Origin: Bacteroidota bacterium
Lineage (GTDB): Bacteria > Bacteroidota > Ignavibacteria > UBA10030 > UBA6906
DNA length: 64,000 bases
Assembly: GCA_017860635.1 (NCBI GenBank)
Contig: JAGDMK010000001.1
Span: 15,727 to 79,726 of the forward strand
Reading direction: 5' to 3'
A model generated the notes under the pieces. It made no database searches. It saw only the letters and a list, made by a program, of their open reading frames with translations, and was not told the origin of the DNA. The position numbers were made by a program, and so were the translations under genes. Positions 1 through 36,115 of this stretch are shown one piece after another (within the stretch, counting starts at the first letter, position 1; each line of letters starts with the position of its first letter).

Positions 1-1825
1 GACATGGCTTTGTGACACCTTGCACGCTGCTCCATCGAGTCACAATAATATGAGCATCTATGCATCTGACGCCAACAGAGCATGGGTCTTATTGTTCAAC
101 AAGGTCGCCCAGTCGGGGGGCGGTCTCTTTGCCACAACCGACGGCGGCGTAACATGGAAAGAGGACCCGACGGTATTCAAACTTGCAGGCGGCTCTCCTG
201 GCATAATCTATTTCTTTGATGTTGCGAATGGTGTGTGCATTGGCGACCCTCCCGCTGATGGGTTCTATGAAATCTATACCACCTCGGACAGTGGTAGAAG
301 CTGGTCGCGCGTTCCGCGGGAGAATATTCCCGCTCCATTCCCTGGCGAAATGACCATAAGCCATGAGTTCACTGCCGCTGGTAGCTCGCTTTGGTTCCCA
401 CTCTACCATGGGAATGGGAGAATCTTCAGAACAACCGACAAGGGTCTGACATGGTCGGTTCTTGTGTATCCAAATATGCAGTATGGTCCGTACCCGACGA
501 TAGAATTTCAGGATGAAAAGGTCGGACTCGGCAGTGGCGATTGGGGAGAAGTGGAGAAGACAACCGACGGGGGTGTCACGTGGACGACGATCCCCACATC
601 GATGAGACTCGCATTTCAAGACCTCGATTATGTCCCGCACACACCGGGAATGTACGTCGCAAGTGCAGCGTGGTGCGACAGCTCTCTATTGCAGAAATAC
701 CACTATGGTACCGTATACACCCTGGACGCTGGGGCCCACTGGACTATTGCCACTGCATCGACAGCGGCGACCCCTCCAGCCACCTTTAGCCTTCCAATCA
801 TGAGTTTCGCCACTCCAACGTCAGGTTGGCAAGGCGATAATTCCCAGAATATCTACAAATGGACAGTGCCACCAGGAAGGACCGTGGGAGTATACCCTGA
901 CTCATTAATCTTCTCGATGATTACAGCAGGGCGAAGAAGTGATACGCTCTCCGTGGATTTCGTGAACCATGGACGTGACGCAGTGACGGTGTCGAGCATT
1001 ACCCTGTCGGGGACAGAATTTGCTGTGATTAGGCCGCCGACACTGCCGACCACTGTTTCCTCGCTTGGTTCAGTGAGAGTCGAAGTCTGTTTTACCCCAC
1101 TCACAAAAGGCACCCACCATGATTCCCTCGTCTTTGTGAGCAATGCCGCCAATGTCCCGCGAGCAAGCGTACTGTTGGGGGTTTATGCCACACCGTACCT
1201 GATTCTCGCACCGACGGCTATTGACTTCGGGCAAAAAGACGTCAACATGGCATCTCTCGACACTGCGCTCATCGTGACCAACCTCGGCGGAGCGGATGAT
1301 TCTATCTCAATAAGTGTGGATGCTGTTAACATCGTGCCAGATACGGCCATCTCTGTCTCACCCATGGGATTCATCCTTCCTGCCGGCGGTTCGCAGGCTT
1401 GCACCGTGCACGTCAGGCCCCGGCTGTTGGCAAGTGGTTCGTATTACTATGCTTTCGTCCAGATGAACTCACAACTCTCGGTCGTCACGCCGCAGCTGGA
1501 GGGGAGCATCTCGTTCAACCTCATCGGCACACTTGGGGTACGCGAAGCGGAAGGGCTCCCAACGCAATTCGCATTGCGGCAGAACTACCCCAACCCGTTC
1601 AATCCGAGCACGACCATCAAGTACGAGTTGCCCAGATCATCGGAAGTCAGATTGAGCGTGTACGATATGCTCGGGCGCGAGGTGGCGATTCTCGTGAATG
1701 AAAGAATGAACGCGGGAGTTCACGAAGTGAAGTTTGACGGTTCTGGTCTTGCGAGTGGTGTGTATCTATACCGAATGTGGGCGGGAGAGTTCGTGGCGAC
1801 GAAGCGCCTCCTCTTGTTGAAGTAA
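1..1825 (+). CDS. BNR/Asp-box repeat secreted protein with Ig-like middle domain and T9SS C-terminal sorting domain (5' partial; the reading frame is open to the window edge)
   Basis: Frame 2 has no stop between nt 2 and the first listed codon. Four S-x-D-x-G-x-T-W motifs are present (TTDGGVTW, TSDSGRSW, TTDKGLTW, TTDGGVTW). The C-terminus 'NYPNPFNPSTTIKYELPRSSEVRLSVYDMLGREV..GVYLYRM..KRLLLLK' is a T9SS type-A CTD. Confidence 0.75.
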   Translation, partial: TWLCDTLHAAPSSHNNMSIYASDANRAWVLLFNKVAQSGGGLFATTDGGVTWKEDPTVFKLAGGSPGIIYFFDVANGVCIGDPPADGFYEIYTTSDSGRSWSRVPRENIPAPFPGEMTISHEFTAAGSSLWFPLYHGNGRIFRTTDKGLTWSVLVYPNMQYGPYPTIEFQDEKVGLGSGDWGEVEKTTDGGVTWTTIPTSMRLAFQDLDYVPHTPGMYVASAAWCDSSLLQKYHYGTVYTLDAGAHWTIATASTAATPPATFSLPIMSFATPTSGWQGDNSQNIYKWTVPPGRTVGVYPDSLIFSMITAGRRSDTLSVDFVNHGRDAVTVSSITLSGTEFAVIRPPTLPTTVSSLGSVRVEVCFTPLTKGTHHDSLVFVSNAANVPRASVLLGVYATPYLILAPTAIDFGQKDVNMASLDTALIVTNLGGADDSISISVDAVNIVPDTAISVSPMGFILPAGGSQACTVHVRPRLLASGSYYYAFVQMNSQLSVVTPQLEGSISFNLIGTLGVREAEGLPTQFALRQNYPNPFNPSTTIKYELPRSSEVRLSVYDMLGREVAILVNERMNAGVHEVKFDGSGLASGVYLYRMWAGEFVATKRLLLLK

Positions 1826-1835
1826 ACATGGCCGC

Positions 1836-2085
1836 GGACATACAAGGCCAGCGATTGTATCCAAGGTTGTCAGCGAAGCCGGAAGAGATTCCGGCTTTGT
1901 CATTTTCTCAGCCGATAGTGTTCCGGCGAATCGAAGGCCGATGGTCGACAAATTGTAGACCGGAAGTTGAGTTGGTCTACAAAAAGCGTTGTGCACAAAC
2001 ATTCGAAATCGAGAATCGCGTAGTATTCACAAGGCCTTCTGGGTAGTCAAATCTTGACGCTGAATCGCCAGTACCATTCGAATCG
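1836..2085. repeat. Downstream element (DE) copy 1: conserved hairpin-rich 3' element found after several T9SS cargo genes
   Basis: Near-identical sequence recurs at 7970-8155, 15613-15890, 22803-23010 and 32780-33075. It contains a perfect inverted repeat 'aagccggaagagattccggctt' and 'ggtctacaa..ttgtagacc'. Confidence 0.7.
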
Positions 2086-2224
2086 GTCTCAGTCCTTGAC
2101 TTCCCATCCTCAGGAGATCCTGGCTGCATGATAGGATTTTCCTGGCTCCATAGATTCTGCTCCTCGCACCTGGGACCGTGTCTTAAACTTGCCCCTCCTG
2201 TTGTGCCTCCTGTTGTGCCCATCC

Positions 2225-2372
2225 TGTTGTTGACATTGCCTGAAAGCCGGAGTATATTTGCTTACTTTTGGCATGATGGCTTCCCCAGCCATCGAGCCGC
2301 CGCTCTGGACCCTGTAACGGTTCCTCCGTAGTAGAGCCTTCCCCGACGACCCCCTGGCTGTAAGCCTCGATG
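2225..2372 (+). promoter_or_regulatory. Promoter element (PE) copy 1: TTGACA(2230-2235)-N17-TATATT(2253-2258) followed by a conserved hairpin RNA/leader (GATGGCT..AGCCATC)
   Basis: Consensus sigma70-like -35/-10 boxes with a 17-nt spacer. The block recurs at 15962-16112, 23120-23265 and 25770-25980, with a fragment at 20052-20100. Confidence 0.55.
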
Positions 2373-3962
2373 CATCTGTTCGTCCATTCCGCCATTGGCC
2401 GAGATGGAATCCCGTCACGAAGGCAATCGGCAAATTATGCAGTGATCCGCCACGGTAACAAGAATACGTCAATAGTCGTCTTTCTCCTCCTGCTCGTTTC
2501 GGGAGTATTGACGGGTGTGTCATACCTCTCCATGCAATCCTCTCTTGCCTGGTTCTGTCTCATACCCTTGTTCTATGTCCTTCAGAAACAAGACGCCAGA
2601 GGATCATGTCTTTGTTGTACGGCATACGGAATTGTCACATCTGCCGTTCTCTGCTACTGGGTCATTCCTGTCGCGACAAGATACTCGGGTGTCTTGACAT
2701 TCTACTCGATGCTCCTGTACGGTGGTGTTGTCCTGTACTTCTCGCTGTATTCCGCTCTCTTCGGAGTGGGATACTATGTCCTGCGCACTCGCTCGGCGAA
2801 CACGATCCTCTGTGGTACCTCTGTTGCAGCTTTCTATGTGCTCCTTGAAGTGTTTCGGATGAAACTCCTCCCTGGTTCACCATGGTGTCATTATCCTCTT
2901 GCATGCTCCCAGGCCCGAAACTCGATCATCATTCAATGGGCCGCCATTGGCGGACCTTCTCTCATTACGTTTGGCATAGTGTTCGCAAACTACGCCGCGT
3001 CGCAATTCCTGCTGAAAAGAGAAGTGAAGTCACTCACGATGGCTGCGGTCTGTGTTCTCGTATTTGCCGGGGGAGGTGTCGTTTTGAAAAGTGCTGGCCA
3101 TGAGATCATCGATGACAGGTTGGAGGCGGTTCTCCTCAACGACAACATTGCCGCCGAAGCACGGTGGAATGATCAAACCGGTGACTCCCTGGCTGCTTTG
3201 TTGTTCAGATTGAACGAAGAGGCAGCACGCTACGATCCGGATCTTTTTGTGTGGTCGGAGACAGCTATTCCCTGGAAATTCGAGCCGGACGATGAATTCG
3301 TTCCCAAGGCATTGAGCATTACGCGTCGCTCAAAGGCGAATCACCTGATGGGTATGTGGTCACCCTCAGTCCGGAACAGTCAACTCGTATACAACTCGGC
3401 ATACCTCATCAGGAGTGACGGGAGAATTGCGGACAGATATGACAAGACAATCCTCCTCGATTTCCTTGAGAGGCCATTCAAGGGGGGCGCACTATCGGTT
3501 CTCCCTTTCTTCAACACGAGCAGATACAACAACGTGATTCCCGGCAGATCGCAAAACCTGATCATTTCCGGGAAGGCACGTATTGGTATGCTGATATGCA
3601 ATGAAAGCCTGTCCGAGGAGATGTATGTGCACTACGACAAAGCGAATGCGAATCTCCTCGTCGTGATGAGCAATGATGCCTGGTTTGAGGATACTCCCCT
3701 GCAGATGCATCATTTCTACTTTACGCGGATTGGGGCTGTGATGATCGGAAAGGATGTCATCGTCAACAGCAACAGGGGAATCGTAGGCGTGATTCGAGGC
3801 AATGGTGACATGGAATCCGTTCCGCAATCCGATACGCCGAGAGTAGTGCATTGCGTGGCCCGCCTATCCTCGAAGACGACGCTCTACTCCACGGTCAGTG
3901 GTTTCACTATCCCCCTCTATGCATTGCTGGCAGGTCTGTCAATCGTCATAAGGAGGAAATGA
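2370..3962 (+). CDS. lnt: Apolipoprotein N-acyltransferase
   Basis: N-terminal polytopic membrane region plus C-terminal CN-hydrolase domain. Catalytic-triad contexts match Lnt: 'VWSETAIP' (Glu), 'YDKTILLDF' (Lys), 'LICNESL' (Cys). The exact start is uncertain. Confidence 0.6.
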   Translation: MHLFVHSAIGRDGIPSRRQSANYAVIRHGNKNTSIVVFLLLLVSGVLTGVSYLSMQSSLAWFCLIPLFYVLQKQDARGSCLCCTAYGIVTSAVLCYWVIPVATRYSGVLTFYSMLLYGGVVLYFSLYSALFGVGYYVLRTRSANTILCGTSVAAFYVLLEVFRMKLLPGSPWCHYPLACSQARNSIIIQWAAIGGPSLITFGIVFANYAASQFLLKREVKSLTMAAVCVLVFAGGGVVLKSAGHEIIDDRLEAVLLNDNIAAEARWNDQTGDSLAALLFRLNEEAARYDPDLFVWSETAIPWKFEPDDEFVPKALSITRRSKANHLMGMWSPSVRNSQLVYNSAYLIRSDGRIADRYDKTILLDFLERPFKGGALSVLPFFNTSRYNNVIPGRSQNLIISGKARIGMLICNESLSEEMYVHYDKANANLLVVMSNDAWFEDTPLQMHHFYFTRIGAVMIGKDVIVNSNRGIVGVIRGNGDMESVPQSDTPRVVHCVARLSSKTTLYSTVSGFTIPLYALLAGLSIVIRRK

Positions 3963-3963
3963 G

Positions 3964-5745
3964 ATGAAGCCCACATCGTATGCCATCCTGTCCCTTGTGG
4001 TCGTTCTCTGGCATGATGTTGCTTCCGCCAATGGAGGTCAGGTCGCGTGGAGATGGAGAAACGATGACGGCGATGTCTATAGCGCCACGTGGAAAGACTC
4101 TGCAAACACTCCGGTCGTCCTGACGCAGTATGAGAATATCCGACTCAGGATAGAATACCTGGTCGGCGAGGTGAATGTCTGGAGTGTTTCGCTTCGCTAT
4201 ACGGAGTATCCAGATATCAATAGTTCCTGGATTCCGATAACCAGTGTCGATACCGGGAGGTTCTTCATCTCACCATCTCCACATCTCATTGATGCGATGT
4301 CATATTTCGACAACCAACTTCTCCCCCCATACAATCCCGACAATGTGTATCGCAGGACCCTTGCATTCGATTCATCATGCGCCTACCGGATGGTTGATGA
4401 GGAATCCTCTGTTTACGAGCTGGAGTATTCACTGAAGCCGACAATGAACATCCAACCGGGCTCGGCGTATTTCTTCTCTTGTTTCCTGGACGACTCGCCG
4501 ATGAACTCCGGGGCAGATTGGGAGCGTGCTGTTCTTCTGACACCTCCCGTCAGCTGGAGATCACAATCAATAGGCAGACGGTATACGCTCAATGATATCT
4601 TTTTCGTTGATGGGAGTACCGCAACTGCCGTCGGCAGCGGTGGCTCGGGGGGAAGAATATTCAAGACAGTAGACGCTGGAAAGACGTGGATCGATCTGCC
4701 ACTTCCGGCGTGTAAGGGCCTGAGCGCAGTTCAATTCGTGAACGCTGAAGTGGGAGTCGCTGTTGGCTCGGACGGGACAATTCTCAGAACCACGGATGGC
4801 GGGCAGAACTGGTTGTTCGTGGCAAGCACGGACGGCTTCAGATACTTGTCGGGTGTTGCCTTTTCTGATGAACAGAATGGGACAATCGTTGGTGGCTATT
4901 CCGGAGGAGGAGGAGGAATAATGCTTCGTACGACCGACGGTGGTGAGAGCTGGTTTCAACAGCAATGCCCGACCAGCAACTCTCTCCTCTCAGTGTGTTT
5001 CTCAGGCGCAGATCAGGGGATTGCTGTTGGTGCCGCGGGAACTATCGTGAGAACGACAAACGGCGGCGAACACTGGTTCGTGCAATCGAGCGGGACTACA
5101 CGCCGTCTTCGTGATATTTGCTTTTCGGATGCGAACCATGGAACGATTGTTGGTGAAGATAGCGGCAGAGGAGTAGCACTCCGGACATCAGATGGGGGAA
5201 TCACGTGGACATCAGTGCATATCGAAGGGCCTGTACTGAATGCGGTGTGTTTCGCGGACAACAGTACGGGCTGGACGGTCGGAGTCGGTGGCTGGATGTG
5301 CAAGACAACGGACGGGGGACTGAGTTGGAAGAGACTGACGAGCGGTACTTGCCGGTCGTTGTGCTCCGTTCATTTTGTCAACAGCGAAATCGGCTGGGTT
5401 GTGGGCGAGGGCGGGACAATCCTCAGAACCACAAACGGCGGAACAACTTCTGTCGATAATGACAAGCTTCTCACAGTGCCAACAGAGACCGTGCTGCTGC
5501 AGAATTACCCCAATCCCTTCAATCCGAGCACGACCATTACGTACCATCTGCCGAAATCGTCGCACGTGAGGTTGAGCGTGTACGACATGCTCGGTCGTGA
5601 GGTATCAGTGCTGGTGAACGAGAGGCGGGACGCCGGGGCGCACCAAACACGCTTCCAGGCATCGGAGCTGTCAAGCGGTGTCTACTTGTACCGGCTGATG
5701 GCTGGAGAATGCATCCGTACAAAGAAGATGATGGTTCTGCGGTGA
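3964..5745 (+). CDS. Secreted Ycf48/BNR-like beta-propeller protein with T9SS CTD
   Basis: Signal peptide 'MKPTSYAILSLVVVLWHDVASA'. Seven T(T/V)DGG..W Asp-box-like repeats (TVDAGKTW, TTDGGQNW, TTDGGESW, TTNGGEHW, TSDGGITW, TTDGGLSW, TTNGG). C-terminal 'NYPNPFNPSTTITYHLP..VYDMLGREV' CTD. RBS 'aaggagga' precedes the ATG. Confidence 0.8.
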   Translation: MKPTSYAILSLVVVLWHDVASANGGQVAWRWRNDDGDVYSATWKDSANTPVVLTQYENIRLRIEYLVGEVNVWSVSLRYTEYPDINSSWIPITSVDTGRFFISPSPHLIDAMSYFDNQLLPPYNPDNVYRRTLAFDSSCAYRMVDEESSVYELEYSLKPTMNIQPGSAYFFSCFLDDSPMNSGADWERAVLLTPPVSWRSQSIGRRYTLNDIFFVDGSTATAVGSGGSGGRIFKTVDAGKTWIDLPLPACKGLSAVQFVNAEVGVAVGSDGTILRTTDGGQNWLFVASTDGFRYLSGVAFSDEQNGTIVGGYSGGGGGIMLRTTDGGESWFQQQCPTSNSLLSVCFSGADQGIAVGAAGTIVRTTNGGEHWFVQSSGTTRRLRDICFSDANHGTIVGEDSGRGVALRTSDGGITWTSVHIEGPVLNAVCFADNSTGWTVGVGGWMCKTTDGGLSWKRLTSGTCRSLCSVHFVNSEIGWVVGEGGTILRTTNGGTTSVDNDKLLTVPTETVLLQNYPNPFNPSTTITYHLPKSSHVRLSVYDMLGREVSVLVNERRDAGAHQTRFQASELSSGVYLYRLMAGECIRTKKMMVLR

Positions 5746-7939: not shown

Positions 7940-7969
7940 TATCAGGTGATACTAACTAAAAATAGACGT

Positions 7970-8155
7970 GGCCACAGACATACAAGGCCAGCGATTGTAT
8001 CCAAGGTTGTCAGCGAAGCCGCAAGAGATTCCGGCTTTGTCATTTTCTCAACCGATAGTGTTCCGGCGAATTGAAAGCCGATGGTCGCCAAATTGTAGAC
8101 CGGAAGTTGAGTTGGTCTACAAAAAGCGTCGTGCAGAAACATTAGAATTTGGGAA
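7970..8155. repeat. DE copy 2 (truncated)
   Basis: About 90% identical to 1836-2020, including the 'gccggaagagattccggc' and 'ggtcgccaaattgtagacc' hairpins. Confidence 0.7.
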
Positions 8156-8280
8156 GCCTGGTTCAGCGGGATGGATCGACTCAATGGGTCAGGACTTGGG
8201 TCAGTTCCGACGCTCCTTGTCCTGGGACTACGATGTGAAGCGCAACACCCAGCCACTTAGACAGTCGGAGAGCCATTCAC

Positions 8281-8512
8281 TGCTGTGAAAAAGGCACAAT
8301 TGATAGTTTCTTCCGCATAATTGGTGGCAAAACCGCCTCCGGAGGCATTATCTTTCCGGCATCGACTAATTGATGACCCACACACGCTCCGGACTCGATG
8401 AGGGAGTCGGTGCGCCGCCGAGTGTTTCTGCTTTATCGTCGTACCGACGACCCACCGACTACCATCTCAAATAAGTAATCTCCGACAGCGTTTGCGTTGA
8501 AAGGAGGCCAAG
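8281..8512 (+). promoter_or_regulatory. Conserved upstream leader (UL) of BNR/beta-helix cargo paralogs ('ggcacaattgatagttt..gcataattggtggc....gagtcggtgcgccgccgagtgtttc....gcgttgaaaggagg')
   Basis: Homologous blocks lie at 10753-10995 and 16262-16481. 3' halves lie at 13306-13430, 17748-17883, 20100-20186 and 5760-5794. Each ends in the RBS 'aaaggagg' immediately before the ATG. Confidence 0.5.
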
Positions 8513-23010: not shown

Positions 23011-23119
23011 TCATCGCTACTCCTCGATTTTCCATTTTCAGTCAACCCTGGTTACCAGCCAGGTTCCATCTCCGTTCCTGCACACCCCACTCGTCCCATG
23101 AAGCTAGTCAATGCTATCC

Positions 23120-25345: not shown

Positions 25346-25642
25346 CTACCACGAACGCCGGCCACCCTGTTGCTTCCCTCCGTGACCCGGTTTGCGCTCT
25401 ACCCGTGGACGAGCTTCTGTCACGTCCATAGACTGACCCTTAAGAGGCTTCCGGTGTAGTCCGGCGATTGCCGCTTCTGCCTGGGCTTTGTCAGGCATTT
25501 CAACGAACGCGAATCCCTTGGAGCCCCCACCGAACTTATCCTTGACCACCTCCACCGATGACAGTGTGCCAAAAGGTTCGAAGGCGGCCCGCAATTCTGC
25601 ATCCGTAACATCGCGCGAGAGGTTTCCGACGAAAAGTTTCAT
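25346..25642 (-). CDS. RRM-domain RNA-binding protein (Rbp-like)
   Basis: RNP-2 'KLFVGNL' and RNP-1 'KGFAFVEM', with a Gly/Arg-rich tail. Confidence 0.85.
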   Translation of the reverse strand: MKLFVGNLSRDVTDAELRAAFEPFGTLSSVEVVKDKFGGGSKGFAFVEMPDKAQAEAAIAGLHRKPLKGQSMDVTEARPRVERKPGHGGKQQGGRRSW

Positions 25643-25769: not shown

Positions 25770-25980
25770 TCCCGTCGTTGACATTGCTCGCTAGCCGGAG
25801 TATATTTGCTCAGTTATGTGCACGATGGCTCCACCAGCCATCGAGTCCGTCATCCTGACATCCTGGGATGACGAGACCTCGTCCCGCCTCCGACGGGACG
25901 GGCCGCCGCTGTTTGACCCTGCAATGGTTCTTTCGCTTTAGAGCCTACCCCGACGACCCCCTGGCTGCAAGCCTCAGAGT
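25770..25980 (+). promoter_or_regulatory. PE copy 5: TTGACA(25778-25783)-N17-TATATT(25801-25806) plus conserved hairpin RNA carrying a ~57-nt insertion
   Basis: Same architecture as the other PE copies. Lies immediately upstream of the sensor kinase gene. Confidence 0.5.
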
Positions 25981-26088
25981 ATAGTGATTCTGACTTGGCA
26001 CCAACTCAGGAGCCAGATCACTCTTTCATGGATTGAATCCCTTGCTCTCCTCATTTGCAGCACTCCGGTTAGTACAAGAAGGCACATC

Positions 26089-29000
26089 ATGTTGTTTCCT
26101 TCGTTGAGAAGCTGCTGGAAACTCAAGGTCCTCCAACCTGTGTGTGTCCTTTTGTTCAGTCTGCAGTGCATTGTATTCTCAGCCCCACGAGAGACAATTC
26201 GATTTCAGCATTTCGGTGTCGAGCAGGGACTCCCGAACAGCGCCGTGAACTGGATTCTGCTGGACGGTCACGGGTATCTCTGGGTTGCCACAGTCGACGG
26301 TCTTGGCCGCTATGACGGATACCGGTTCCAGGTTTATCGAAATAACTCCGAAGACGAAGCGAGCTTGAGCTCCAACGACGTGAGAACTCTTTTTGAGGAT
26401 CGATCCGGGAATTTGTGGGTCGGGACAAATGGGGGGTTAAACAGATTCGACTGGAAAACGGAGAAGTTCAGGCGATACCTTTACAGTGCTCATGACGACA
26501 ACAGCATCAGTTCCGATTCCATCACGACAATAGGTGAGGATGGCAAGGGTGAGTTGTGGATTGGAACGAAGGCTGCTGGCCTGAACACGTTCAACGCACA
26601 TAAGAACAATTTCACGCGGGTGGTGCTTGATACGAGTGCGCGGACGGTGGGAAAAAAGACCTTGTGCGACAACAGAGTACGCGCCATCATTCGGGATCAC
26701 AAAGGGGTTCTCTGGATTGGAACACGAGGTGGGTGGTTGCACAGGCTTGATCCCGTCACGAACGAATTCGATTGCTATCGAAGTGCTCGTACTCATACGG
26801 ACGTTCTCGATCCCGATGGAGTGAGGGCTCTCTGTGAAGACCATTCCGGGAATATTTGGCTTGGGACGTTCGAAGCTGGTATTAAGAAGTTCGATCCGAT
26901 GACGAGGAAGTTCGAGACATTCATCCACAGGTCAGGGGATCCTACAAGCCTGAGCAACAACGCCGTTAATCAGCTGCTTGTTGATCGAACGGGCGATCTG
27001 TGGATCGCGACATTTAACGGAGGCCTCGATAGACGACGCTGGCCGGAAAGGAAGTTCAAGCATTATGTGAACAACCCTAAGGACCCCGTAACCCTGAGCA
27101 GTGATAACGTCACTTCTCTTTGTGAAGATCAATCCGGGACGGTGTGGGTCGGGACTGCAGTTGGCCTTGACAAATATGTTGCAGGAATGAATATCTTTCG
27201 ACACTTCTCTCACGACCCTGACGATCCGAAGAGCCTGAGCAACAATTTCGTTGCATCGATCAAGGAGGATCGCTCGGGGAATCTGTGGGTCGCTACGTTT
27301 GGTGGGGGACTCAACCAATTCGATCCAGCAACCGGAGTGTTCGAACATTTCTTGCATAGTCCCAGAGACGCGGGTAGCATCTGCAGCAATTACGTCACCG
27401 GTCTCTGTGTGAGTCGCTCGGGCTCGTTGTGGATCGGCACGATGGGAGGAGGTCTTGACAAGCTTGCTCCTGGAAGCCGGAAATTTCAACACTATCCGAA
27501 AACCAGAAGTGACACACGCATCCGCACAATCTATGAGGATGGATCAGGCCTGTTGTGGTACGGCACATACAGTGCGGGACTGAAGAAATTCAATCCCCGA
27601 ACGAATCAGCTTACACATTTCTTTCAGGACCCGAATAATCCTCATAGCGTGACCAGTAATGTGGTTTGGGAGTTCGAAGTGGATACTGCCCGTAAGAACG
27701 AAGGGCTCCTATGGATTGCAGCCAATCATGGATTCACGAGATGTGACATGAAGCGTGAGAAATTCCAACAGTTCTTTCCGGACACTCAATACACGAGTCG
27801 AAGCAATAACATCATGCAGACTCACCAGGATCACTCTGGCACGCTCTGGCTTGCAACTCTGGGCGGTCTCTGGGGCTTTGAACCGAAAACCGGGGCCTTC
27901 GAGCACTTTACCAGCAAGGACGGTCTGGCGAATGACCTTGTTTGGAATTTGGAAGAGGATGACCATGGACGGTTGTGGATCGCGACCGGCAGCGGTCTTT
28001 CCCGATTTGATCCTCGCACGAAACAGTTTAGGAATTACGATGCCGGGGACGGGTTGCAGGGAATCCGCTTCAATTATGGCTGCCACAGCAAACTCAGAAG
28101 TGGCGAACTGTGCTTCGGAAGCACCGATGGTTTCACCATGTTCCACCCTGATAGCGTAAAGGAGAACACGCACGTTCCCCCAATTGTCATTGCAGGTTTC
28201 AGGAAGTTCAACAAACCGGTCGACATTCGGGAGGCCGTTGGTCAGTCCGGCGCGGTCGAGCTTTCATACAAAGAAAACATGTTCTCCTTTGAGTTTGCTG
28301 CATTGGACTTTGTTCGCCCCGAAGAGAATCAGTACGCCTACAAGCTCGAGGGGTTTGACAAGGATTGGGTGTACTGCGGCACGCGCCGATCGGCAACGTA
28401 TACAAACCTCGATGGCGGAGAATATGTCTTTCGAGTTAAGGGAGCGAACAATGATGGTGTTTGGAACGAAGAAGGGGCTTCCATGGCTGTCATTATCACG
28501 CCCCCGTTCTGGGCAACATGGTGGTTCCGGATACCGGCAATGATCGCTCTGCTTGGCATTGTCGGCAAAACAGTCCGGTACGTTGAAAAGAGAAAGCTGA
28601 TGAGAAGAATCGAACAGTTGGAACTGGAGCAAGCCCTGGTGAACGAACGTGCCCGCATTTCACAAGACATGCACGATGAGATTGGGTCCAGTTTGTCAGA
28701 GATTGCCATACTGGGTGAGTTGGCGAGAAAGAAGCCAGAGGAAGCGGAAAGGTACATTCAGCAGATCTCCGAACGCGCAGCGGAGGTGATTGACAGTGTC
28801 AGCGAGATCGTCTGGGCGATGAATCCGAGCTACGACACACTTGACAGTCTCGTCGCTCGCATGCGAAGGGATGCGGTCAAATATTTGGGCTTTGCGAACA
28901 TTTCCTGCAGGTTCGCTGCTCCTGACGTTGTTCCTAGCCTCCCCCTCCGCGCTGAACTGCGCAGGAATCTTTTCCTTGTCGTCAAGGAAGCTCTTCACAA

Positions 29001-29277
29001 TATCGTCAAACACTCTGCGGCCACGGAAGTCTCGATCTCTGTCAGGTGCATGAAAGGCGACCTGGAAATTCTTGTCTCAGACAATGGAAAAGGGTTTGTC
29101 CTCACTGACCGACTCGGGACAGGAAATGGCTTGAGCAGCATGCACAAGCGGATCGCTGATATGGGCGGGACTCTCAGGATAGATTCCACACCCGGTCGTG
29201 GGACACTGGTTGCAGTTCAAGCGACATTGGCAACCCATAGACCAACCGATTTACCTAATTCTAAGTATTGGATCTGA
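26089..29277 (+). CDS. Sensor histidine kinase with periplasmic two-component-regulator-propeller (Reg_prop) repeats, Y_Y_Y domain, TM, HisKA_3 and HATPase_c
   Basis: Reg_prop-like 'G.LW.GT..GL..fd' repeats (more than 10). 'YAYKLEGFDKDW' Y_Y_Y motif. TM 'FWATWWFRIPAMIALLGIV'. H-box 'HDEIGSSLSEI'. 'SDNGKGF' G-box. Confidence 0.8.
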   Translation: MLFPSLRSCWKLKVLQPVCVLLFSLQCIVFSAPRETIRFQHFGVEQGLPNSAVNWILLDGHGYLWVATVDGLGRYDGYRFQVYRNNSEDEASLSSNDVRTLFEDRSGNLWVGTNGGLNRFDWKTEKFRRYLYSAHDDNSISSDSITTIGEDGKGELWIGTKAAGLNTFNAHKNNFTRVVLDTSARTVGKKTLCDNRVRAIIRDHKGVLWIGTRGGWLHRLDPVTNEFDCYRSARTHTDVLDPDGVRALCEDHSGNIWLGTFEAGIKKFDPMTRKFETFIHRSGDPTSLSNNAVNQLLVDRTGDLWIATFNGGLDRRRWPERKFKHYVNNPKDPVTLSSDNVTSLCEDQSGTVWVGTAVGLDKYVAGMNIFRHFSHDPDDPKSLSNNFVASIKEDRSGNLWVATFGGGLNQFDPATGVFEHFLHSPRDAGSICSNYVTGLCVSRSGSLWIGTMGGGLDKLAPGSRKFQHYPKTRSDTRIRTIYEDGSGLLWYGTYSAGLKKFNPRTNQLTHFFQDPNNPHSVTSNVVWEFEVDTARKNEGLLWIAANHGFTRCDMKREKFQQFFPDTQYTSRSNNIMQTHQDHSGTLWLATLGGLWGFEPKTGAFEHFTSKDGLANDLVWNLEEDDHGRLWIATGSGLSRFDPRTKQFRNYDAGDGLQGIRFNYGCHSKLRSGELCFGSTDGFTMFHPDSVKENTHVPPIVIAGFRKFNKPVDIREAVGQSGAVELSYKENMFSFEFAALDFVRPEENQYAYKLEGFDKDWVYCGTRRSATYTNLDGGEYVFRVKGANNDGVWNEEGASMAVIITPPFWATWWFRIPAMIALLGIVGKTVRYVEKRKLMRRIEQLELEQALVNERARISQDMHDEIGSSLSEIAILGELARKKPEEAERYIQQISERAAEVIDSVSEIVWAMNPSYDTLDSLVARMRRDAVKYLGFANISCRFAAPDVVPSLPLRAELRRNLFLVVKEALHNIVKHSAATEVSISVRCMKGDLEILVSDNGKGFVLTDRLGTGNGLSSMHKRIADMGGTLRIDSTPGRGTLVAVQATLATHRPTDLPNSKYWI

Positions 29278-29302
29278 AAGCGTGTGTACGTATTCTCAAT
29301 CC

Positions 29303-29929
29303 ATGACTATCAAAGTCGCAATCGTTGAAGACAACAAGAAGATTCGGGAGGGTCTGGCAATACTCATTGACGGCTCGGAAGGATTTCAATGCTCTGCGGT
29401 GTACGACAGCGCGGAAGAAGCCTTGCGCCATCTCCCGTCATACAAGCCCGATGTAGTGTTGATGGACATCCAACTCCCAGGGATGTCTGGCATCGAGTGT
29501 GTCGCGAAACTCAAGGAGAAGAACCCGAATCTTCAGGTCATTATGCTAACGGTCTTTGAGGACGATGAGAAGGTGTTCAAGTCCATTGTTGCCGGGGCTA
29601 CGGGGTATATCCTCAAGAGGACGCCGGCGGCAGAATTGCTCGGAGCGATAAAGGAAGTCCATGAAGGCGGTTCCCCAATGTCTGACCAGATCGCCCGCAA
29701 AGTGGTGCAGGCTTTTCAGCAGATGGGAAAGTCTTCCAAGGAAACGGAGAATCTCACCGAGCGGGAGATGGAGATTCTCTCGTTCCTTGCCAAGGGATAC
29801 CAGGACCAGGAAATTGCTGACCAGTTCTTTATCAGTGTCAAGACAGTTCGAACCCACCTCAGAAACACCTACCAGAAGCTTCATGTCCGTTCCCGCACCC
29901 AGGCTGTGCTGAAGTATTTGCGGAAATAG
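29303..29929 (+). CDS. NarL/FixJ-family response regulator (REC plus LuxR-type HTH)
   Basis: 'KVAIVEDN..DVVLMDIQLPGMSGIE' receiver. 'LTEREMEILSFLAKGYQDQEIADQFFISVKTVRTH' LuxR HTH. Confidence 0.85.
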   Translation: MTIKVAIVEDNKKIREGLAILIDGSEGFQCSAVYDSAEEALRHLPSYKPDVVLMDIQLPGMSGIECVAKLKEKNPNLQVIMLTVFEDDEKVFKSIVAGATGYILKRTPAAELLGAIKEVHEGGSPMSDQIARKVVQAFQQMGKSSKETENLTEREMEILSFLAKGYQDQEIADQFFISVKTVRTHLRNTYQKLHVRSRTQAVLKYLRK

Positions 29930-30562: not shown

Positions 30563-32728
30563 ATGAGATTCAAACAGAAGTCAGCGTATGTGGCGTTTGG
30601 CGGTGTGTTCGTCATTGTCGGGTTCATGGGCATGGCTTCCATCAGTCTGGCGCAAGTTGACACTTGGACAGACAAAACCCCAATGCCCACCACAAGAACA
30701 TTGCCTGGTGGATGTGTCATTGATGGAAAAATCTACGTTGTCGGTGGCGCTCTGAATGAAACAGACCTGACAGCGGCTGTAGAAGTGTATGATCCAATCG
30801 GTAACACATGGACCAAGAAGGATACTCTGCCATCAAGGCTCTGTATTCATGCGACCTGCACATTCGAAGGCAAGATCTACGTATTTGGAGGTATCAGCCC
30901 CACTGTTCAGTCAACGGCTAAGAAGAGCGTCTATGTCTATGATCCAAGGATGGGCACTTGGACTCAGAAAGCTGATATGCCAAATGTCAATGCGTGGTGT
31001 GGTATAGCAGTTGTCGATAGCGCAATCTATCTCATTGGTGGATGTACCGTAGCGCCAGGTCCACCGAGTCAAACTGTAATGGCATATTATCCTCATATGC
31101 AATCGTGGACGTCGAAGGCAGATATGCCGACAGCTCGATTTGGCTTGTCCGCCTCCGTCGTGAATGGAAAGATCTATGCCATTGGAGGATGTGACGCCAG
31201 CTATCAGCCCTATAAAAACGTTGAGATGTACAATCCGGCAACGAATTCTTGGAGAGCCGTATCCGACATGCCGACGCAGCGCTTCGGTCTAGGTACTTGT
31301 GTGGTGGAAGGACAAATCTATGCTATTGGCGGTTGTTCAACGACGGGTGCATGTACAATCAATGAACTCTATGATCCTGCCACAAATACATGGACCACAA
31401 AATCTCCAATGCGGAAGGAACGGCTTGGACTCTTTGTGGGTTCGATCGGGAATAAGATCTATGCAATAGGTGGGTCGAATCCATACCCTCAGCCTACGAT
31501 GTTTTCTACGGTGGAGGAATATTTGGTCAAAGAAGACTTCTGGACAACGAAGACCAACATGCCTACCGCACGATACGGTCTATCCACCAGCGAGGTGAAT
31601 GGGAAGATCTATGCCATCGGCGGTGCAGCTGGTACGAGTATGACGACTCTTTCGACGGTGGAAGAGTACGACCCGGCCAGGGATATATGGACCACCAAAG
31701 CTCCGATGCCAACTCCCAGGTTCTTTCATTCCATGAGCGTGGTCAATGGGAAGATCTATGCCATCGGGGGCGCACCGCAGGCGAACCAACAAGTTCCGAC
31801 TGTGGAAGCGTACGACCCGGAGACGAATACGTGGACGACGAAAGCCGACATGCCAACCGCACGACACAGTCTATCCAGCAGTGTGGTGAATGGGAAGATC
31901 TATGCTATCGGGGGTGGCCGAGTTGGTACTTGGGATGTGTCAATCGTGGAAGAATTCGACCCGGCCACGGATAAATGGACAACGAAAGCCCCGATGCCAA
32001 CGCTAAGAGGCTCGCTTTCCACCAACGTGTTGGACGGAAAGATCTATGCAATCGGGGGTGGCTCTGGTACCATGGATGGGGCAGGTATTGGGATCGTGGA
32101 AGTGTACGACCCGGCCACGGATAAATGGACTGCGAAAGCCCCCATGCCAACGGCAAGAAAAGGCTTATCCACCAGCGTGGTAAACGGGAAGATCTATGCC
32201 TTTGGTGGCTATTCAGGGAGTGGAGTGAGCGCCCCAGTTATTTCGACCGTTGAAGTGTATAGCCCGACGACGGACTTCTGGACTAGGTTAGCCGAGATGC
32301 CGACGGCACGGGGCTTGCTTTCGACCAGCGTGGTGAACGGCAAGGTCTATCTCATTGGGGGGTCCGTGGCGCGGGGCTACCCTTGGGTAGCTTGTTCAAC
32401 AGTGGAGGAATATACCCTCCAGACAACAAGCGTAAAGGTAGAATCCAGGGCAACGATTGTACCGTTACAATACGCACTTTTGCAGAACTACCCCAACCCC
32501 TTCAATCCGAGCACAACAATCACGTACCAGTTGCCGGTGTCAACGGGAGTCAGATTGAGTGTGTTCGATGTACTGGGTCGGGAAGTATCCGTGCTGGTGA
32601 ATGAGAGAAGGGAGGCAGGTGTTCATGAAGTCAAGTGTGAGGGTTCGAATCTTGCAAGTGGCGTATATTTCTACCGACTGCAAGCTGGAGGTTTTGTGCA
32701 GACGAAGAAACTGGTTCTGAGCAAGTGA
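30563..32728 (+). CDS. Kelch-repeat beta-propeller secreted protein (about 12 Kelch units) with T9SS CTD
   Basis: RBS 'gaggagg'. Signal/anchor 'VAFGGVFVIVGFMGMASISLAQ'. Repeated 'NGKIYAIGG..VEEYDPATDKWTTKAPMPT'. CTD 'NYPNPFNPSTTITYQLP'. Confidence 0.8.
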   Translation: MRFKQKSAYVAFGGVFVIVGFMGMASISLAQVDTWTDKTPMPTTRTLPGGCVIDGKIYVVGGALNETDLTAAVEVYDPIGNTWTKKDTLPSRLCIHATCTFEGKIYVFGGISPTVQSTAKKSVYVYDPRMGTWTQKADMPNVNAWCGIAVVDSAIYLIGGCTVAPGPPSQTVMAYYPHMQSWTSKADMPTARFGLSASVVNGKIYAIGGCDASYQPYKNVEMYNPATNSWRAVSDMPTQRFGLGTCVVEGQIYAIGGCSTTGACTINELYDPATNTWTTKSPMRKERLGLFVGSIGNKIYAIGGSNPYPQPTMFSTVEEYLVKEDFWTTKTNMPTARYGLSTSEVNGKIYAIGGAAGTSMTTLSTVEEYDPARDIWTTKAPMPTPRFFHSMSVVNGKIYAIGGAPQANQQVPTVEAYDPETNTWTTKADMPTARHSLSSSVVNGKIYAIGGGRVGTWDVSIVEEFDPATDKWTTKAPMPTLRGSLSTNVLDGKIYAIGGGSGTMDGAGIGIVEVYDPATDKWTAKAPMPTARKGLSTSVVNGKIYAFGGYSGSGVSAPVISTVEVYSPTTDFWTRLAEMPTARGLLSTSVVNGKVYLIGGSVARGYPWVACSTVEEYTLQTTSVKVESRATIVPLQYALLQNYPNPFNPSTTITYQLPVSTGVRLSVFDVLGREVSVLVNERREAGVHEVKCEGSNLASGVYFYRLQAGGFVQTKKLVLSK

Positions 32729-32779
32729 AAGTCGCCGCGATACATGCGACTCCTGCAATTCGATCACAGGTGTTTCCGG

Positions 32780-33075
32780 AGCCGGAAGTAGTTCCGGCTT
32801 CGCTATTTATGTGACCAGTGCTGTTCGAGAACCTCGAAAACCGATGGTCTGCAATTCGTAGACCAATACTCGGCTTGGTCCAAGAAAAGTCTCGTGCTCA
32901 AACATTCGAGTTCGGGAATCGCTCAATGTCCACAAGGGCTTCCTCACTTTCGAATCTTGAGGCTGAATCGCCACTACTGTTCAATTCAGCAGGAATCCTC
33001 CCTACCTGACGGCAGGCAGGGATTTTCCGTATTCCATCTTCATTCAGCCCTGACCCCAGACGGGGTTCTTTCTTC
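32780..33075. repeat. DE copy 5 with terminal terminator-like hairpins ('ccctacctgacggcaggcaggg' followed by 'attttcc', and 'accccagacggggtt' followed by 'ctttcttcttc')
   Basis: Homologous to DE copies 1-4. Confidence 0.65.
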
Positions 33076-33122
33076 TTCAGGATCTGTTCATGGTTTGAGC
33101 CTGGCTGCAGCAAATCGACCGC

Positions 33123-36104: not shown

Positions 36105-36115
36105 ACGTCAGGAAA

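What the first reader, a model, noticed from the sequence alone, without database searches (positions are those of the whole stretch)
1..33100. Dense T9SS cargo island with modular cassette architecture (shared 5' leader plus signal peptide, variable passenger, shared 3' CTD plus downstream element)
Twelve cargo genes lie in the first 33 kb, and fifteen in the whole window. The CTD-encoding 3' ends are about 85-90% nt-identical between functionally unrelated genes (BNR propeller, M1 peptidase, Kelch, beta-helix, SBBP), including identical runs such as 'aacgcgggagttcacgaagtgaagtttgacggttctggtcttgcgag'. The passenger domains are unrelated. The 5' ends of the BNR and beta-helix genes share a conserved leader ending in 'gcgttgaaaggagg' and a conserved signal peptide M(R/K)..F.CLAL.VLLCPC..AQW. 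This pattern indicates gene conversion or cassette shuffling that keeps secretion signals homogeneous while swapping cargo.
Basis: seen in the sequence. Interest (0 to 1): 0.6.

Follow-up and report, generated by a model that had tools for sequence, protein, structure and literature searches.

The report
tRNA-His-anchored array of secretion-cargo modules
The first 33 kb of this window is most of a 40-kb genomic island that begins at a tRNA-His gene and consists of tandem, promoter-led modules of type IX secretion cargo genes separated by copies of the tRNA's 3' end; it shows how a bacterium can grow its secreted-protein repertoire module by module, and three of the cargo genes carry a conserved in-frame stop codon that looks like a selenocysteine site.

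Summary
11 (not 12) T9SS type-A CTD genes end within 1-33,100, and 14 (not 15) lie in the window. Island CTDs are 64-85% nt-identical (mean 74%), not 85-90%, and several passengers are paralogs.

The similarity does exceed amino-acid constraint: the same codon is used at 53% of identical residues, against 34% expected. It also continues past the stop codons into a ~0.5-kb conserved junction. That "downstream element" consists of:
- an intrinsic terminator;
- three GGTCTACA repeats;
- a 21-nt direct repeat of the 3' end of tRNA-His;
- a near-consensus promoter;
- a leader.

The real tRNA-His gene lies 7.1 kb upstream of the window. Eight repeats over 40 kb delimit tandem modules. A relative's 11-kb island between tRNA-His and hisS is flanked by the same repeat.

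Best reading: a tRNA-His-anchored island built by tandem accretion of cargo operons, then reshaped by duplication, domain swapping and a few short conversion tracts. General within-genome homogenisation is not supported, because a relative's CTDs are as similar as the paralogs. No integrase was found.

In passing: three BNR-propeller cargo genes, and an ortholog in the relative, carry a conserved in-frame TGA followed by a SECIS-like hairpin.

The parts
1..1825 (+). 3' part of a cargo gene (BNR/Ycf48-like + two Ig-like ASH/HYDIN modules + T9SS CTD). The gene starts upstream of the window.
   Evidence: Pfam. The full 720-732-aa gene is seen in L008/L037.
1873..2369 (+). Junction module, made of: terminator 1873-1900; GGTCTACA repeats 1943-1983; tRNA-His 3'-end direct repeat 2064-2084; promoter P1 2230-2258; leader1 2268-2369.
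   Evidence: This is the best promoter match (11/12) and the best terminator match of the scanned 20 kb.
2370..3962 (+). Apolipoprotein N-acyltransferase (Lnt)-like gene. It is the first gene after P1 in this module and is not a T9SS cargo.
   Evidence: Pfam LNT_N + CN_hydrolase.
3964..5745 (+). Cargo gene: Ycf48/BNR propeller + CTD.
   Evidence: Pfam.
5795..7939 (+). Cargo gene: BNR/sortilin-like propeller + CTD. It is interrupted by one in-frame TGA at 6320-6322, followed by a hairpin at 6334-6349.
   Evidence: The N-terminal fragment is found exactly in 21 independent contigs.
7940..8160 (+). Truncated junction: terminator and GGTCTACA repeats only, with no direct repeat and no P1.
8280..8512 (+). 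Leader2, a 5' untranslated module ending in GCGTTGAAAGGAGG.
   Evidence: 76.8% identical to 10763-10995.
8513..10729 (+). Cargo gene: BNR/sortilin-like propeller + CTD. In-frame TGA at 8954-8956, hairpin at 8968-8983.
   Evidence: The N-terminal fragment is found exactly in 19 contigs.
10763..13305 (+). Leader2 + cargo gene (right-handed beta-helix + Ig-like module + CTD), 10996-13305.
13306..13551 (+). Leader2 followed by a vestigial signal-peptide uORF (13432-13551; MRSHSLCLVLAVVPPCPRAFAQW...). The uORF overlaps the M1 peptidase start through ATGA.
13548..15566 (+). Cargo gene: M1 peptidase + CTD.
   Evidence: Pfam.
15616..16110 (+). Junction module, made of: terminator 15616-15639; GGTCTACA repeats 15683-15723; direct repeat 15804-15824; P1 15969-15997; leader1 16008-16110.
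16352..17729 (+). Leader2 + cargo gene (BNR propeller + CTD), 16476-17729.
17755..20046 (+). Leader2 + cargo gene (BNR propeller + CTD), 17884-20046. In-frame TGA at 18649-18651, hairpin at 18663-18678. 45-nt palindromic in-frame insertion in the CTD at 19957-20001.
   Evidence: An ortholog with an aligned TGA is present in L033.
20066..22754 (+). Hybrid leader (leader1 hairpin + leader2 tail) + cargo gene 20184-22754 (Kelch propeller fused to beta-helix + CTD). The CTD carries the 45-nt insertion at 22665-22709.
22803..23260 (+). Junction module, made of: terminator 22803-22828; repeats 22871-22911; direct repeat 22992-23012; P1 23125-23153; leader1 23164-23260.
23444..25183 (+). Cargo gene: SBBP beta-propeller repeats + CTD (an alternative start is at 23369). 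The CTD carries the 45-nt insertion at 25094-25138.
25349..25642 (-). Small RRM-domain RNA-binding protein gene. It is the only minus-strand gene in the island.
   Evidence: Pfam RRM_1, E = 5.6e-21.
25778..25983 (+). P1 (25778-25806) + leader1 carrying a 57-nt insertion. Here they drive the sensor kinase.
25984..29929 (+). Two-component system: Reg_prop/Y_Y_Y histidine kinase (25984-29277) and LuxR-type response regulator (29330-29929).
   Evidence: Pfam.
30563..32728 (+). Cargo gene: 12 Kelch repeats + CTD (the ORF opens at 30464).
   Evidence: Pfam.
32777..33151 (+). Last, decayed junction: terminator 32777-32802; repeats 32846-32889; degenerate direct repeat 32967-32987; P1-like site 33123-33151. 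G+C rises beyond this point.

Best explanation
Window 1-33,150 is the distal five-sixths of a ~40-kb genomic island in an uncultivated Bacteroidota bacterium.

Shown:
- The island begins at a tRNA-His gene 7.1 kb upstream of the window.
- It is a tandem array of at least seven modules.
- Each module is a transcription unit that opens with the same near-consensus promoter (P1) and leader and closes with the same terminator.
- Most genes in the modules are type IX secretion cargo: signal peptide, variable passenger, type-A CTD.
- Modules are separated by a ~0.5-kb junction. In order, it holds a terminator, three GGTCTACA repeats (-> <- ->), a 21-nt direct repeat of the 3' end of tRNA-His, a copy of the sequence that follows the real tRNA (a hairpin plus T-run), P1 and leader1.

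Inferred:
- This junction is what tandem site-specific integration at a tRNA 3' end leaves behind: the right arm of one element, the att core, and the left arm of the next. The island therefore grew by accretion of related integrase-less, CIME-like modules. The GGTCTACA repeats would be the recombinase arm sites.
- Inside the modules the cargo set diversified by duplication, domain swapping and occasional short gene-conversion tracts. The conserved 5' end (leader2 + signal peptide) and 3' end (CTD + junction) served as homology.
- CTD similarity mainly reflects shared ancestry in this module pool plus strong purifying selection, not continuous homogenisation.
For: The tRNA gene and its repeats:
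- tRNA-His lies at window -7209..-7133 in L037, a contig of the same species.
- ATCGCCAGTACCATTCGAWTC occurs at the tRNA 3' end and again at -5973, -3394, -810, 2064, 15804, 22992 and, degenerate, at 32967.
- Homology to the tRNA starts at its 65th base in every copy that aligned (-3394, 2064, 15804, 22992), and continues into the tRNA-downstream region and P1/leader1 at 78-92% identity.
- There is no similarity to the tRNA body upstream of the repeat (z about 0).

Relatives:
- L033 (HisRS 77% aa identity) has an 11-kb island between tRNA-His and hisS. It is flanked by the 13-nt TCGCCAGTACACC at both ends and carries the same terminator, GGTCTACA repeats, P1 and leaders.
- L011, a third organism, has tRNA-His, then P1/leader1, then two non-cargo genes, then the repeats and the direct repeat.

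Signals and composition:
- P1 sites are the best promoter matches in 40 kb: 11/12 at 2230, 23125 and 25778. The junction terminators are among the strongest terminator matches in the two scans (the best match in 1-20,000; second and fourth in 20,001-40,000).
- G+C is about 0.53 in the island and about 0.58 beyond 34 kb.

Internal reshuffling:
- Same-codon excess in CTDs is 0.53 against 0.34 expected.
- For the genes ending at 1825 and 13305, the passenger same-codon fraction is 0.30 and the CTD fraction 0.64.
- Three pairs have significant conversion-like tracts.
- The 45-nt insertion is 44/45 identical between two CTDs.
- Scars are listed.

A PorV/PorQ family gene lies in the window.
Against: - No integrase or other recombinase was found between -7.6 kb and +64 kb, nor in the relative's island.
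- About twenty strain-level contigs are collinear at 99.6-100% identity with no module gained or lost, so there is no sign of current mobility.
- The whole 0.5-kb junction is repeated, not only the core. Tandem segmental duplication of one original integrated element would give the same picture.
- The role of the GGTCTACA repeats as recombinase sites is inferred from position only. They could be a transcription-factor operator, or RNA hairpins.
- Module sizes (2.6-13.7 kb) are small for integrative elements.
Confidence: 0.55

Rival explanations
1. In-situ tandem duplication only. One ancestral element integrated at tRNA-His. Its unit (core, promoter, genes, terminator, repeats) was then amplified by unequal homologous recombination, and passengers were replaced later. 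There were no repeated site-specific integrations.
For: - The whole junction, not only the core, is repeated at 70-85% identity.
- Many passengers in different modules are paralogs.
- No integrase was found.
- The strains are collinear.
Against: - The first module in two different organisms carries non-cargo genes (SnoaL-like, esterase) with the same junction.
- Junctions and CTDs of a relative are as close to the window's as the window's are to each other. This fits a shared pool better than private amplification.
- The first duplication would still need a second copy of the core.
Confidence: 0.3
2. One reading: ongoing gene conversion (concerted evolution) homogenises the CTD and signal-peptide ends of otherwise unrelated genes.
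For: - Synonymous similarity is above expectation.
- 8 of 55 CTD pairs have p < 0.05 for long identical tracts, and 3 pairs have p <= 0.0005.
- The CTD of 17884-20046 is closer to those of 13548-15566 and of the gene ending at 1825 (85% and 81% nt) than to its ortholog's CTD (76%).
- The 45-nt insertion is shared by three adjacent CTDs and is absent from the ortholog.
Against: - On average, the relative's CTDs are as similar to the window's as the window's paralogs are to each other (same-codon 0.53-0.59 vs 0.53). Nucleotide identity is only 64-85%.
- dS between orthologous CTDs is saturated.
- Paralogous passengers also show a same-codon excess (0.36-0.45 vs 0.28-0.30 expected).
- Conversion is therefore occasional, not the main cause.
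Confidence: 0.2
3. Similarity of the CTD-coding ends reflects only amino-acid constraint imposed by the T9SS recognition machinery, plus codon bias.
For: The CTD consensus is conserved at protein level across species.
Against: - Same-codon use is 53% against 34% expected, whereas island CTDs compared with non-island CTDs of the same genome sit at expectation.
- The similarity runs on for ~540 non-coding bases.
Confidence: 0.02
4. An integron-like system: an unknown recombinase encoded elsewhere still shuffles the modules as cassettes through the junction sites.
For: - The modules form a same-orientation array separated by a conserved structured site containing inverted repeats.
- Island content differs strongly between relatives: 4 cargo genes in L033 against the 11 CTD genes that end inside window 1-33,100, plus further genes upstream of the window.
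Against: - There is no intI and no attC-type site.
- The cassettes carry their own promoter.
- There is no strain-level variation.
Confidence: 0.1

Closest known systems
Dehalococcoides ssrA genomic islands (tandem islands carrying rdhA genes; PMC3146451)
   Same: - Several tandem islands lie downstream of a small stable-RNA gene.
- Each is bounded by a direct repeat of that gene's 3' end.
- The cargo is a family of paralogous niche genes.
- G+C is lower than in the flanks, and some islands lack integration genes.
   Different: - Many ssrA islands carry an integration module with a serine recombinase (dsiB); none is seen here.
- The target here is tRNA-His.
- The repeat is embedded in a 0.5-kb conserved junction that also supplies terminator, promoter and leader.
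- The modules are smaller, and the cargo is T9SS-secreted proteins.
CIMEs and tandem accretion of integrative elements at tRNA genes (Streptococcus ICESt1/ICESt3 family; reviewed in PMC5704250)
   Same: These are elements without integration genes that keep att sites. They accumulate in tandem at the 3' end of a tRNA gene, and the internal junctions have right arm, core and left arm.
   Different: - No functional partner element or integrase was seen.
- Mobility is untested.
- At least seven modules of one family sit in a row, which is unusual.
Integrons and clusters of attC sites lacking an integrase (CALINs)
   Same: A same-orientation array of gene units separated by a repeated, structured site.
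   Different: - There is no IntI and no attC.
- The units carry their own strong promoter and terminator and hold one to six genes.
- The repeated core is derived from a tRNA.
T9SS type-A C-terminal domain cargo proteins (Pfam PF18962, TIGR04183)
   Same: All 14 proteins carry the domain at the extreme C-terminus. A PorV/PorQ family gene is in the window.
   Different: Nothing unusual in the domain itself, except a 15-residue insertion encoded by a 45-nt palindrome in three of them.
Bacterial selenoprotein genes with an in-frame UGA and a downstream SECIS hairpin (model summarised in PMC13188914)
   Same: - The in-frame UGA is conserved.
- The hairpin starts 11 nt after the UGA. It has a 6-7-bp stem and a 4-nt loop RGGU, 17 nt from UGA to loop.
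- The coding sequence downstream is under purifying selection.
   Different: - The residue lies in a variable propeller loop with no redox motif.
- Homologs mostly have Trp there, and one has Cys.
- The protein is exported.
- Sec machinery has not been shown for this organism.

Membership tests
T9SS type-A CTD cargo | C-terminal Por_Secre_tail domain above the curated cut-off | tested here: met
   14 of 14 genes score 29-44 bits against a cut-off of 27.
T9SS type-A CTD cargo | N-terminal Sec signal peptide | tested here: inconclusive
   Hydrophobic N-termini ending in AQW/AQR can be read in the sequences. No signal-peptide predictor was available.
T9SS type-A CTD cargo | T9SS machinery in the same genome | tested here: met
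   59130-60164 (-) matches NCBIfam PorV/PorQ family NF033709 at 161 bits, cut-off 90. The other components were not looked for.
Concerted evolution by gene conversion | Synonymous similarity between paralogous segments above the codon-usage expectation | tested here: met
   0.53 observed against 0.34 expected.
Concerted evolution by gene conversion | Paralogs within a genome more alike than homologs between genomes | tested here: not met
   The mean within-window value is 0.53; L033 compared with the window gives 0.53-0.59. Only single pairs fit.
Concerted evolution by gene conversion | Mosaic tracts longer than permutation expectation | tested here: met
   Three pairs have p <= 0.0005 and 8 of 55 have p < 0.05. 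The 45-nt insertion is 44/45 identical.
tRNA-targeted genomic island / tandem accretion | Starts at the 3' end of a tRNA gene | tested here: met
   tRNA-His lies at the left end in L037, L033 and L011.
tRNA-targeted genomic island / tandem accretion | Direct repeats of the tRNA 3' end at the boundaries | tested here: met
   Eight copies occur over 40 kb. In L033 a 13-nt repeat lies at the tRNA and just before hisS.
tRNA-targeted genomic island / tandem accretion | Integrase gene | tested here: not met
   None between -7.6 and +64 kb, and none in L033. The rest of the genome was not available.
tRNA-targeted genomic island / tandem accretion | Composition differs from the flanks and content differs between relatives | tested here: met
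   G+C is about 0.53 in the island and about 0.58 in the flank. The island is 40 kb here and 11 kb in L033. Strains of the species are identical.
tRNA-targeted genomic island / tandem accretion | Excision as a circle, leaving an empty site | not testable with these tools
   This needs the reads of the source metagenomes.
Integron | IntI integrase, attI and attC sites, promoterless cassettes | tested here: not met
   There is no integrase. The repeated site is 0.5 kb long and carries its own promoter and terminator.
Bacterial selenoprotein gene | In-frame UGA conserved among homologs, with the downstream part under purifying selection | tested here: met
   Three paralogs and one ortholog carry it. 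The ortholog's TGA aligns with that of 17884-20046. dN/dS after the TGA is 0.18, and 0.06 in the CTD.
Bacterial selenoprotein gene | Stem-loop that fits the bSECIS model: loop of 3-9 nt with G in its first two positions, stem of 4-16 bp, 16-37 nt from UGA to loop, MFE <= -7.5 | tested here: met
   All four sites read TGA-N11-GRCCYY-RGGT-GGGGTC. Minimal hairpin energies are -11.3, -12.0, -9.8 and -6.8 kcal/mol; the last one misses the energy limit when taken alone.
Bacterial selenoprotein gene | Cys in place of Sec in homologs | tested here: inconclusive
   P0095 has Cys in the same AG-x4-C-x6-GGV frame. P0087, P0110 and P0014 have Trp.
Bacterial selenoprotein gene | selA, selB, selC (tRNA-Sec) and selD in the genome | not testable with these tools
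   The genome is not in the searchable genome collection. None of these genes is in the window.
Rfam RNA families (for the junction and leaders) | Match to a curated covariance model | tested here: not met
   No match at gathering threshold in the window. Only weak chance-level matches were found in 15567-16475.

The most novel reading that the evidence does not exclude
The three split BNR-propeller genes (5795-7939, 8513-10729, 17884-20046) and their ortholog in a relative are read through their conserved UGA by selenocysteine insertion, directed by the RGGU-loop hairpin 11 nt downstream.

This would make them the first selenoproteins known to be exported by the type IX secretion system. Sec would sit in a surface loop where relatives have Trp or Cys. 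Only the read-through product would carry both the signal peptide and the CTD, so export would depend on recoding.
Probability: 0.45. Interest if true: 0.8.

Novelty: new variant of a known kind. Interest (0 to 1): 0.66.

Why it matters
Bacteroidota and their relatives export large, fast-changing sets of surface and extracellular proteins through the T9SS. How these sets grow is poorly documented.

- **A concrete route for growth.** An expandable site sits between tRNA-His and hisS. Ready-made expression modules (promoter, leader, secretion tags, terminator) are stacked there one after another, and their conserved ends then serve as homology for passenger swapping.
- **Testable parts.** The junction gives a candidate recombination core, candidate recombinase-binding repeats, and a near-consensus promoter with its leader.
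- **Annotation.** The UGA-interrupted cargo genes are split into two fragments by gene callers in about twenty public assemblies. Recognising them as recoded genes corrects that annotation, and may add a secreted protein family to the bacterial selenoproteome.

Tried and rejected
- **Rfam.** The whole window at gathering thresholds gave nothing. Permissive scans of a TGA site and of a full junction gave nothing or chance-level hits.
- **tRNA scan of the window.** It found none. The tRNA-His gene was only found after fetching upstream DNA through the Lnt protein.
- **Genome collection scan with a junction pattern.** It gave four chance hits only, so the source genome is not in that collection.
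- **RNA structure of leader2.** Three hairpins, including one that pairs UCUCC with the GGAGG ribosome-binding site, are in register: 78.6% of cells are paired against 36-54% when slid. Covariation is no better than in shuffles, with one compensatory pair, so this is left as inconclusive.
- **Idea that the junction holds a decayed whole tRNA.** Rejected. There is no alignment signal upstream of the 3'-terminal repeat.
- **Small peptide in leader1 (MASSAIEPPLFDP...).** Considered, but one copy has a frame-breaking 1-nt indel and there is no ribosome-binding site. Not pursued.
- **More UGA-interrupted orthologs through their N-terminal fragments.** The protein search was swamped by ordinary 400-aa BNR proteins.
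- **DNA further upstream through the CTD-less BNR protein.** The exact protein was not returned.
- **Integron reading.** Rejected: no IntI and no attC.
- **UGA reassignment for the whole genome.** Rejected. TGA ends many genes exactly at the CTD terminus, and only these three genes have internal TGAs.


Full report
**1. What is in the region**

All long genes in 1-33,100 are on the + strand. The T9SS hallmark QNYPNPFNP occurs 14 times in the window. Eleven of the genes that carry it end inside 1-33,100, with stops at 1825, 5745, 7939, 10729, 13305, 15566, 17729, 20046, 22754, 25183 and 32728. Three more end at 39381, 57188 and 59059.

All 14 C-termini match Pfam PF18962 above its cut-off. Passengers are:
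- BNR/sortilin-like or Ycf48-like propellers (six genes);
- a right-handed beta-helix;
- an M1 peptidase;
- a Kelch propeller fused to a beta-helix;
- SBBP repeats;
- a 12-repeat Kelch propeller.

The island also holds genes that are not cargo:
- an Lnt-like acyltransferase (2370-3962);
- a Reg_prop/Y_Y_Y histidine kinase with a LuxR-type regulator (25984-29929);
- a small RRM protein on the minus strand (25349-25642).

A PorV/PorQ family gene lies at 59130-60164. NCBI labels the source a Bacteroidetes/Bacteroidota bacterium MAG. The same species occurs in many wetland metagenome assemblies.

**2. Check of the observation**

The numbers are too high.
- There are 11 and 14 CTD genes, not 12 and 15.
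- CTD nucleotide identity among the 11 is 64-85%, mean 73.6%, and no pair reaches 85%.
- Several passengers are paralogs or share modules.

The key question was whether the identity exceeds amino-acid constraint. It does.
- At identical residues the same codon is used in 53% of cases, against 33.5% expected from codon usage.
- Island CTDs compared with the three other CTDs of the same genome sit at expectation, 35.5% against 34%.
- The similarity does not stop at the stop codon. Self-BLAST shows blocks such as 1568-2368 vs 15309-16107 (72.5%, 822 nt), with similar blocks after the stops at 7939, 22754 and 32728.

**3. Anatomy of the downstream element**

Aligned copies show the same order of parts:
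- a G+C-rich hairpin with a T-run (GAAGCCGGAAGAGATTCCGGCTT...);
- GGTCTACA three times, in the orientation -> <- ->;
- a conserved stretch ending in ATCGCCAGTACCATTCGAATC;
- a second hairpin with a T-run;
- TTGACATTG-N12-AGTATATTTG;
- about 100 conserved bases that start with the hairpin GATGGC...GCCATC.

The consensus scan ranks these promoters first in 40 kb: 11/12 at 2230, 23125 and 25778; 10/12 at 15969 and 33123. The first hairpins are among the strongest terminator matches in the two scans: the best match in 1-20,000, and the second and fourth in 20,001-40,000. No Rfam family matches.

**4. The element contains the 3' end of tRNA-His**

A metagenome scan with a junction pattern returned two useful loci.
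- L008 extends the window 6.3 kb upstream and holds more junctions.
- L011 comes from another organism and holds both halves of the element around two non-cargo genes.

ARAGORN found tRNA-His immediately upstream of the P1/leader1 half in L011. It also found tRNA-His at the left end of a syntenic island in a relative, L033. Alignment showed that the junctions become collinear with the L011 tRNA locus exactly from the last 13 bases of the tRNA onwards.

Fetching DNA upstream of Lnt from a contig of the window's own species (L037) then showed tRNA-His at window -7209..-7133. It is followed by the same hairpin, P1 and leader1.

The 21-mer occurs at the tRNA end and at -5973, -3394, -810, 2064, 15804, 22992 and, degenerate, 32967. 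The sequence upstream of the repeat has no similarity to the tRNA body.

In L033 the 13-mer TCGCCAGTACACC lies at the tRNA 3' end and again 37 bases before hisS, so it brackets the whole 11-kb island. G+C rises from about 0.53 to about 0.58 just beyond the last repeat.

Each junction therefore has the make-up expected between two elements integrated in tandem at a tRNA 3' end: right arm, core, left arm. Precedents are the tandem ssrA islands of Dehalococcoides (PMC3146451) and the accretion of CIMEs (PMC5704250).

The site-specific origin is inferred. No integrase was found in the DNA available.

**5. Modules**

In window coordinates the repeats delimit these modules:
- tRNA-His to -5973: a SnoaL-like gene;
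- to -3394: a BNR gene without a CTD;
- to -810: a glycoside-hydrolase-like CTD gene;
- to 2064: the gene ending at 1825;
- to 15804: Lnt and five cargo genes, with one truncated junction at 7940-8160;
- to 22992: three cargo genes;
- to 32967: the SBBP gene, the RRM gene, the two-component system behind a further P1, and the Kelch gene.

P1 also drives Lnt, the kinase and, in decayed form, DoxX at 33170, so the promoter is not specific to cargo genes.

**6. Inside the modules**

Shorter gaps between genes hold a second leader, which ends in GCGTTGAAAGGAGG, followed by a conserved signal peptide. The BNR genes, the beta-helix gene and the Kelch/beta-helix fusion share this leader and signal peptide.

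Upstream of the M1 peptidase the same leader is followed by a 39-codon remnant of that signal peptide. It stops in ATGA at the peptidase's own start. The peptidase passenger thus sits inside a resident 5'/3' frame.

Other scars:
- a BNR gene that ends without a CTD, directly in front of the GGTCTACA repeats;
- a strain variant of that gene missing one 41-residue blade;
- a relic encoding SVNETREAGVHEVTIDGS, fused to a leader, in L033.

The three hairpins proposed for leader2, one of which pairs with the ribosome-binding site, are in register but lack covariation.

**7. Gene conversion or shared ancestry?**

Where passengers are paralogous, they also show a same-codon excess (0.36-0.45 against 0.28-0.30 expected). 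This is smaller than in the CTDs, where the fraction is 0.47-0.61. For the genes ending at 1825 and 13305 the shared Ig-like module shows none (0.30) while the CTD shows 0.64.

A permutation test on runs of identical polymorphic sites gives three strongly significant pairs, with tracts of 36-48 nt.

Comparison with L033 (HisRS 77% aa identity, dS saturated) shows no general homogenisation. Its three island-type CTDs are 72-76% identical to the window's, with same-codon fractions of 0.53-0.59. That equals the within-window mean.

Two observations do fit local exchange.
- The CTD of 17884-20046 is closer to those of unrelated neighbours than to its ortholog's CTD.
- A 45-nt hairpin-forming in-frame insertion (encoding VRPLDSAIGRDSKSG) is present only in three adjacent CTDs. 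It is absent from the ortholog and is 44/45 identical between two genes whose flanks are about 77% identical.

About twenty contigs from other samples are collinear with the window at 99.6-100% identity. The refutation criterion "synteny identical in all relatives" therefore holds among strains, but fails at genus or family level.

**8. The in-frame TGA codons**

Three BNR genes appear as two ORFs each. In each case the two ORFs are in the same frame, separated by a single TGA at 6320, 8954 and 18649.

The N-terminal fragments are found exactly in 19-21 independent contigs, which rules out a sequencing error. L033 has an ortholog of 17884-20046 (62% aa identity) whose TGA aligns with it.

All four sites read TGA-N11-GRCCYY-RGGT-GGGGTC.
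- The changes in the 5' arm keep pairing (A-U/G-U and C-G/U-G).
- The 3' arm is the codon triplet GGT GGG GTC. It is used for Gly-Gly-Val only at these 4 of 37 GGV sites in eight related genes, where 0.03 per site is expected.
- The hairpins fit the published bacterial SECIS model.
- Between orthologs, dN/dS is 0.27 before the TGA, 0.18 after it and 0.06 in the CTD. The downstream part is therefore translated.

Only a read-through product would have both the signal peptide and the CTD.

Against a classical selenoprotein:
- Homologs carry Trp at the same position. P0087 even has TGG-x6-GGT GGG GTC, but lacks the 5' arm. P0095 carries Cys.
- There is no redox motif.
- The Sec machinery could not be checked.

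I rate selenocysteine at about 0.45 and hairpin-assisted read-through as Trp at about 0.35. Decay into pseudogenes is excluded by the selection data.

**9. Verdict**

The dense cargo island and its modular ends are real.

The main new result is that the "downstream element" is an att-like junction carrying the 3' end of tRNA-His. The island is a tandem array anchored at that tRNA.

This is a new variant of a known kind of system (tandem islands at stable-RNA genes), applied to T9SS cargo. It comes with an unusually complete built-in expression module, and with a side finding that may be a new exported selenoprotein family.

Noticed in passing
window 6320-6349, 8954-8983, 18649-18678; L033 13593-13622: Three BNR-propeller cargo genes, and an ortholog in a relative, carry one conserved in-frame TGA. 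It is followed after 11 nt by a 6-bp hairpin with an RGGU loop (TGA-N11-GRCCYY-RGGT-GGGGTC). The sequence downstream is under purifying selection. These are candidate selenocysteine sites or programmed read-through sites. Gene callers split these genes in two.
   Followed up: yes
window 19957-20001, 22665-22709, 25094-25138: A 45-nt hairpin-forming insertion lies in frame (VRPLDSAIGRDSKSG) at the same place in three adjacent CTDs. It is 44/45 identical between two of them.
   Followed up: partly
window 13432-13551: A 39-codon uORF encodes a remnant of the island's signal peptide. Its stop overlaps the M1 peptidase start (ATGA). It may act as a translationally coupled upstream ORF.
   Followed up: partly
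L008 7282-9159 (minus strand; window about -5474 to -3597) and L009 781-2535: A 625-aa BNR propeller gene has the island's leader and signal peptide but no CTD, and is followed directly by the junction repeats. A strain variant lacks one 41-residue blade.
   Followed up: partly
L033 12720-12773: A 54-nt relic of CTD coding sequence (SVNETREAGVHEVTIDGS) lies in an intergenic region of the relative, joined to the tail of a leader.
   Followed up: partly
window 25839-25895: A 57-nt insertion with its own hairpins sits inside leader1 upstream of the histidine kinase. The RRM-protein gene (25349-25642, minus strand) lies just upstream of that promoter.
   Followed up: no
window 16170-16190: A run GGCCCCCCCCCGGGGGGGGGG (C9 then G10) lies between leader1 and leader2. 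It may be a hairpin or an assembly-prone spot. An 88%-complementary 17-nt pair (16073-16089 and 16329-16345) encloses this stretch.
   Followed up: no
window 39691-42686 and L033 4204-18368: The island sits between tRNA-His and hisS, and hisS is followed by an aromatic amino acid lyase gene. These genes are presumably adjacent without the island, forming a histidine-themed neighbourhood.
   Followed up: no
window 59130-60164 (minus strand): A PorV/PorQ family T9SS outer-membrane protein gene lies next to two further cargo genes: an M4 peptidase (54102-57188) and a GlcNAc 2-epimerase-like gene (56930-59059). The ORFs of those two cargo genes overlap by about 260 nt, so one start is probably further downstream.
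   Followed up: no
window 37041-39069: The DUF4397 cargo gene (36922-39381) is an internal triplication of a ~680-nt unit at 66-71% nt identity.
   Followed up: no
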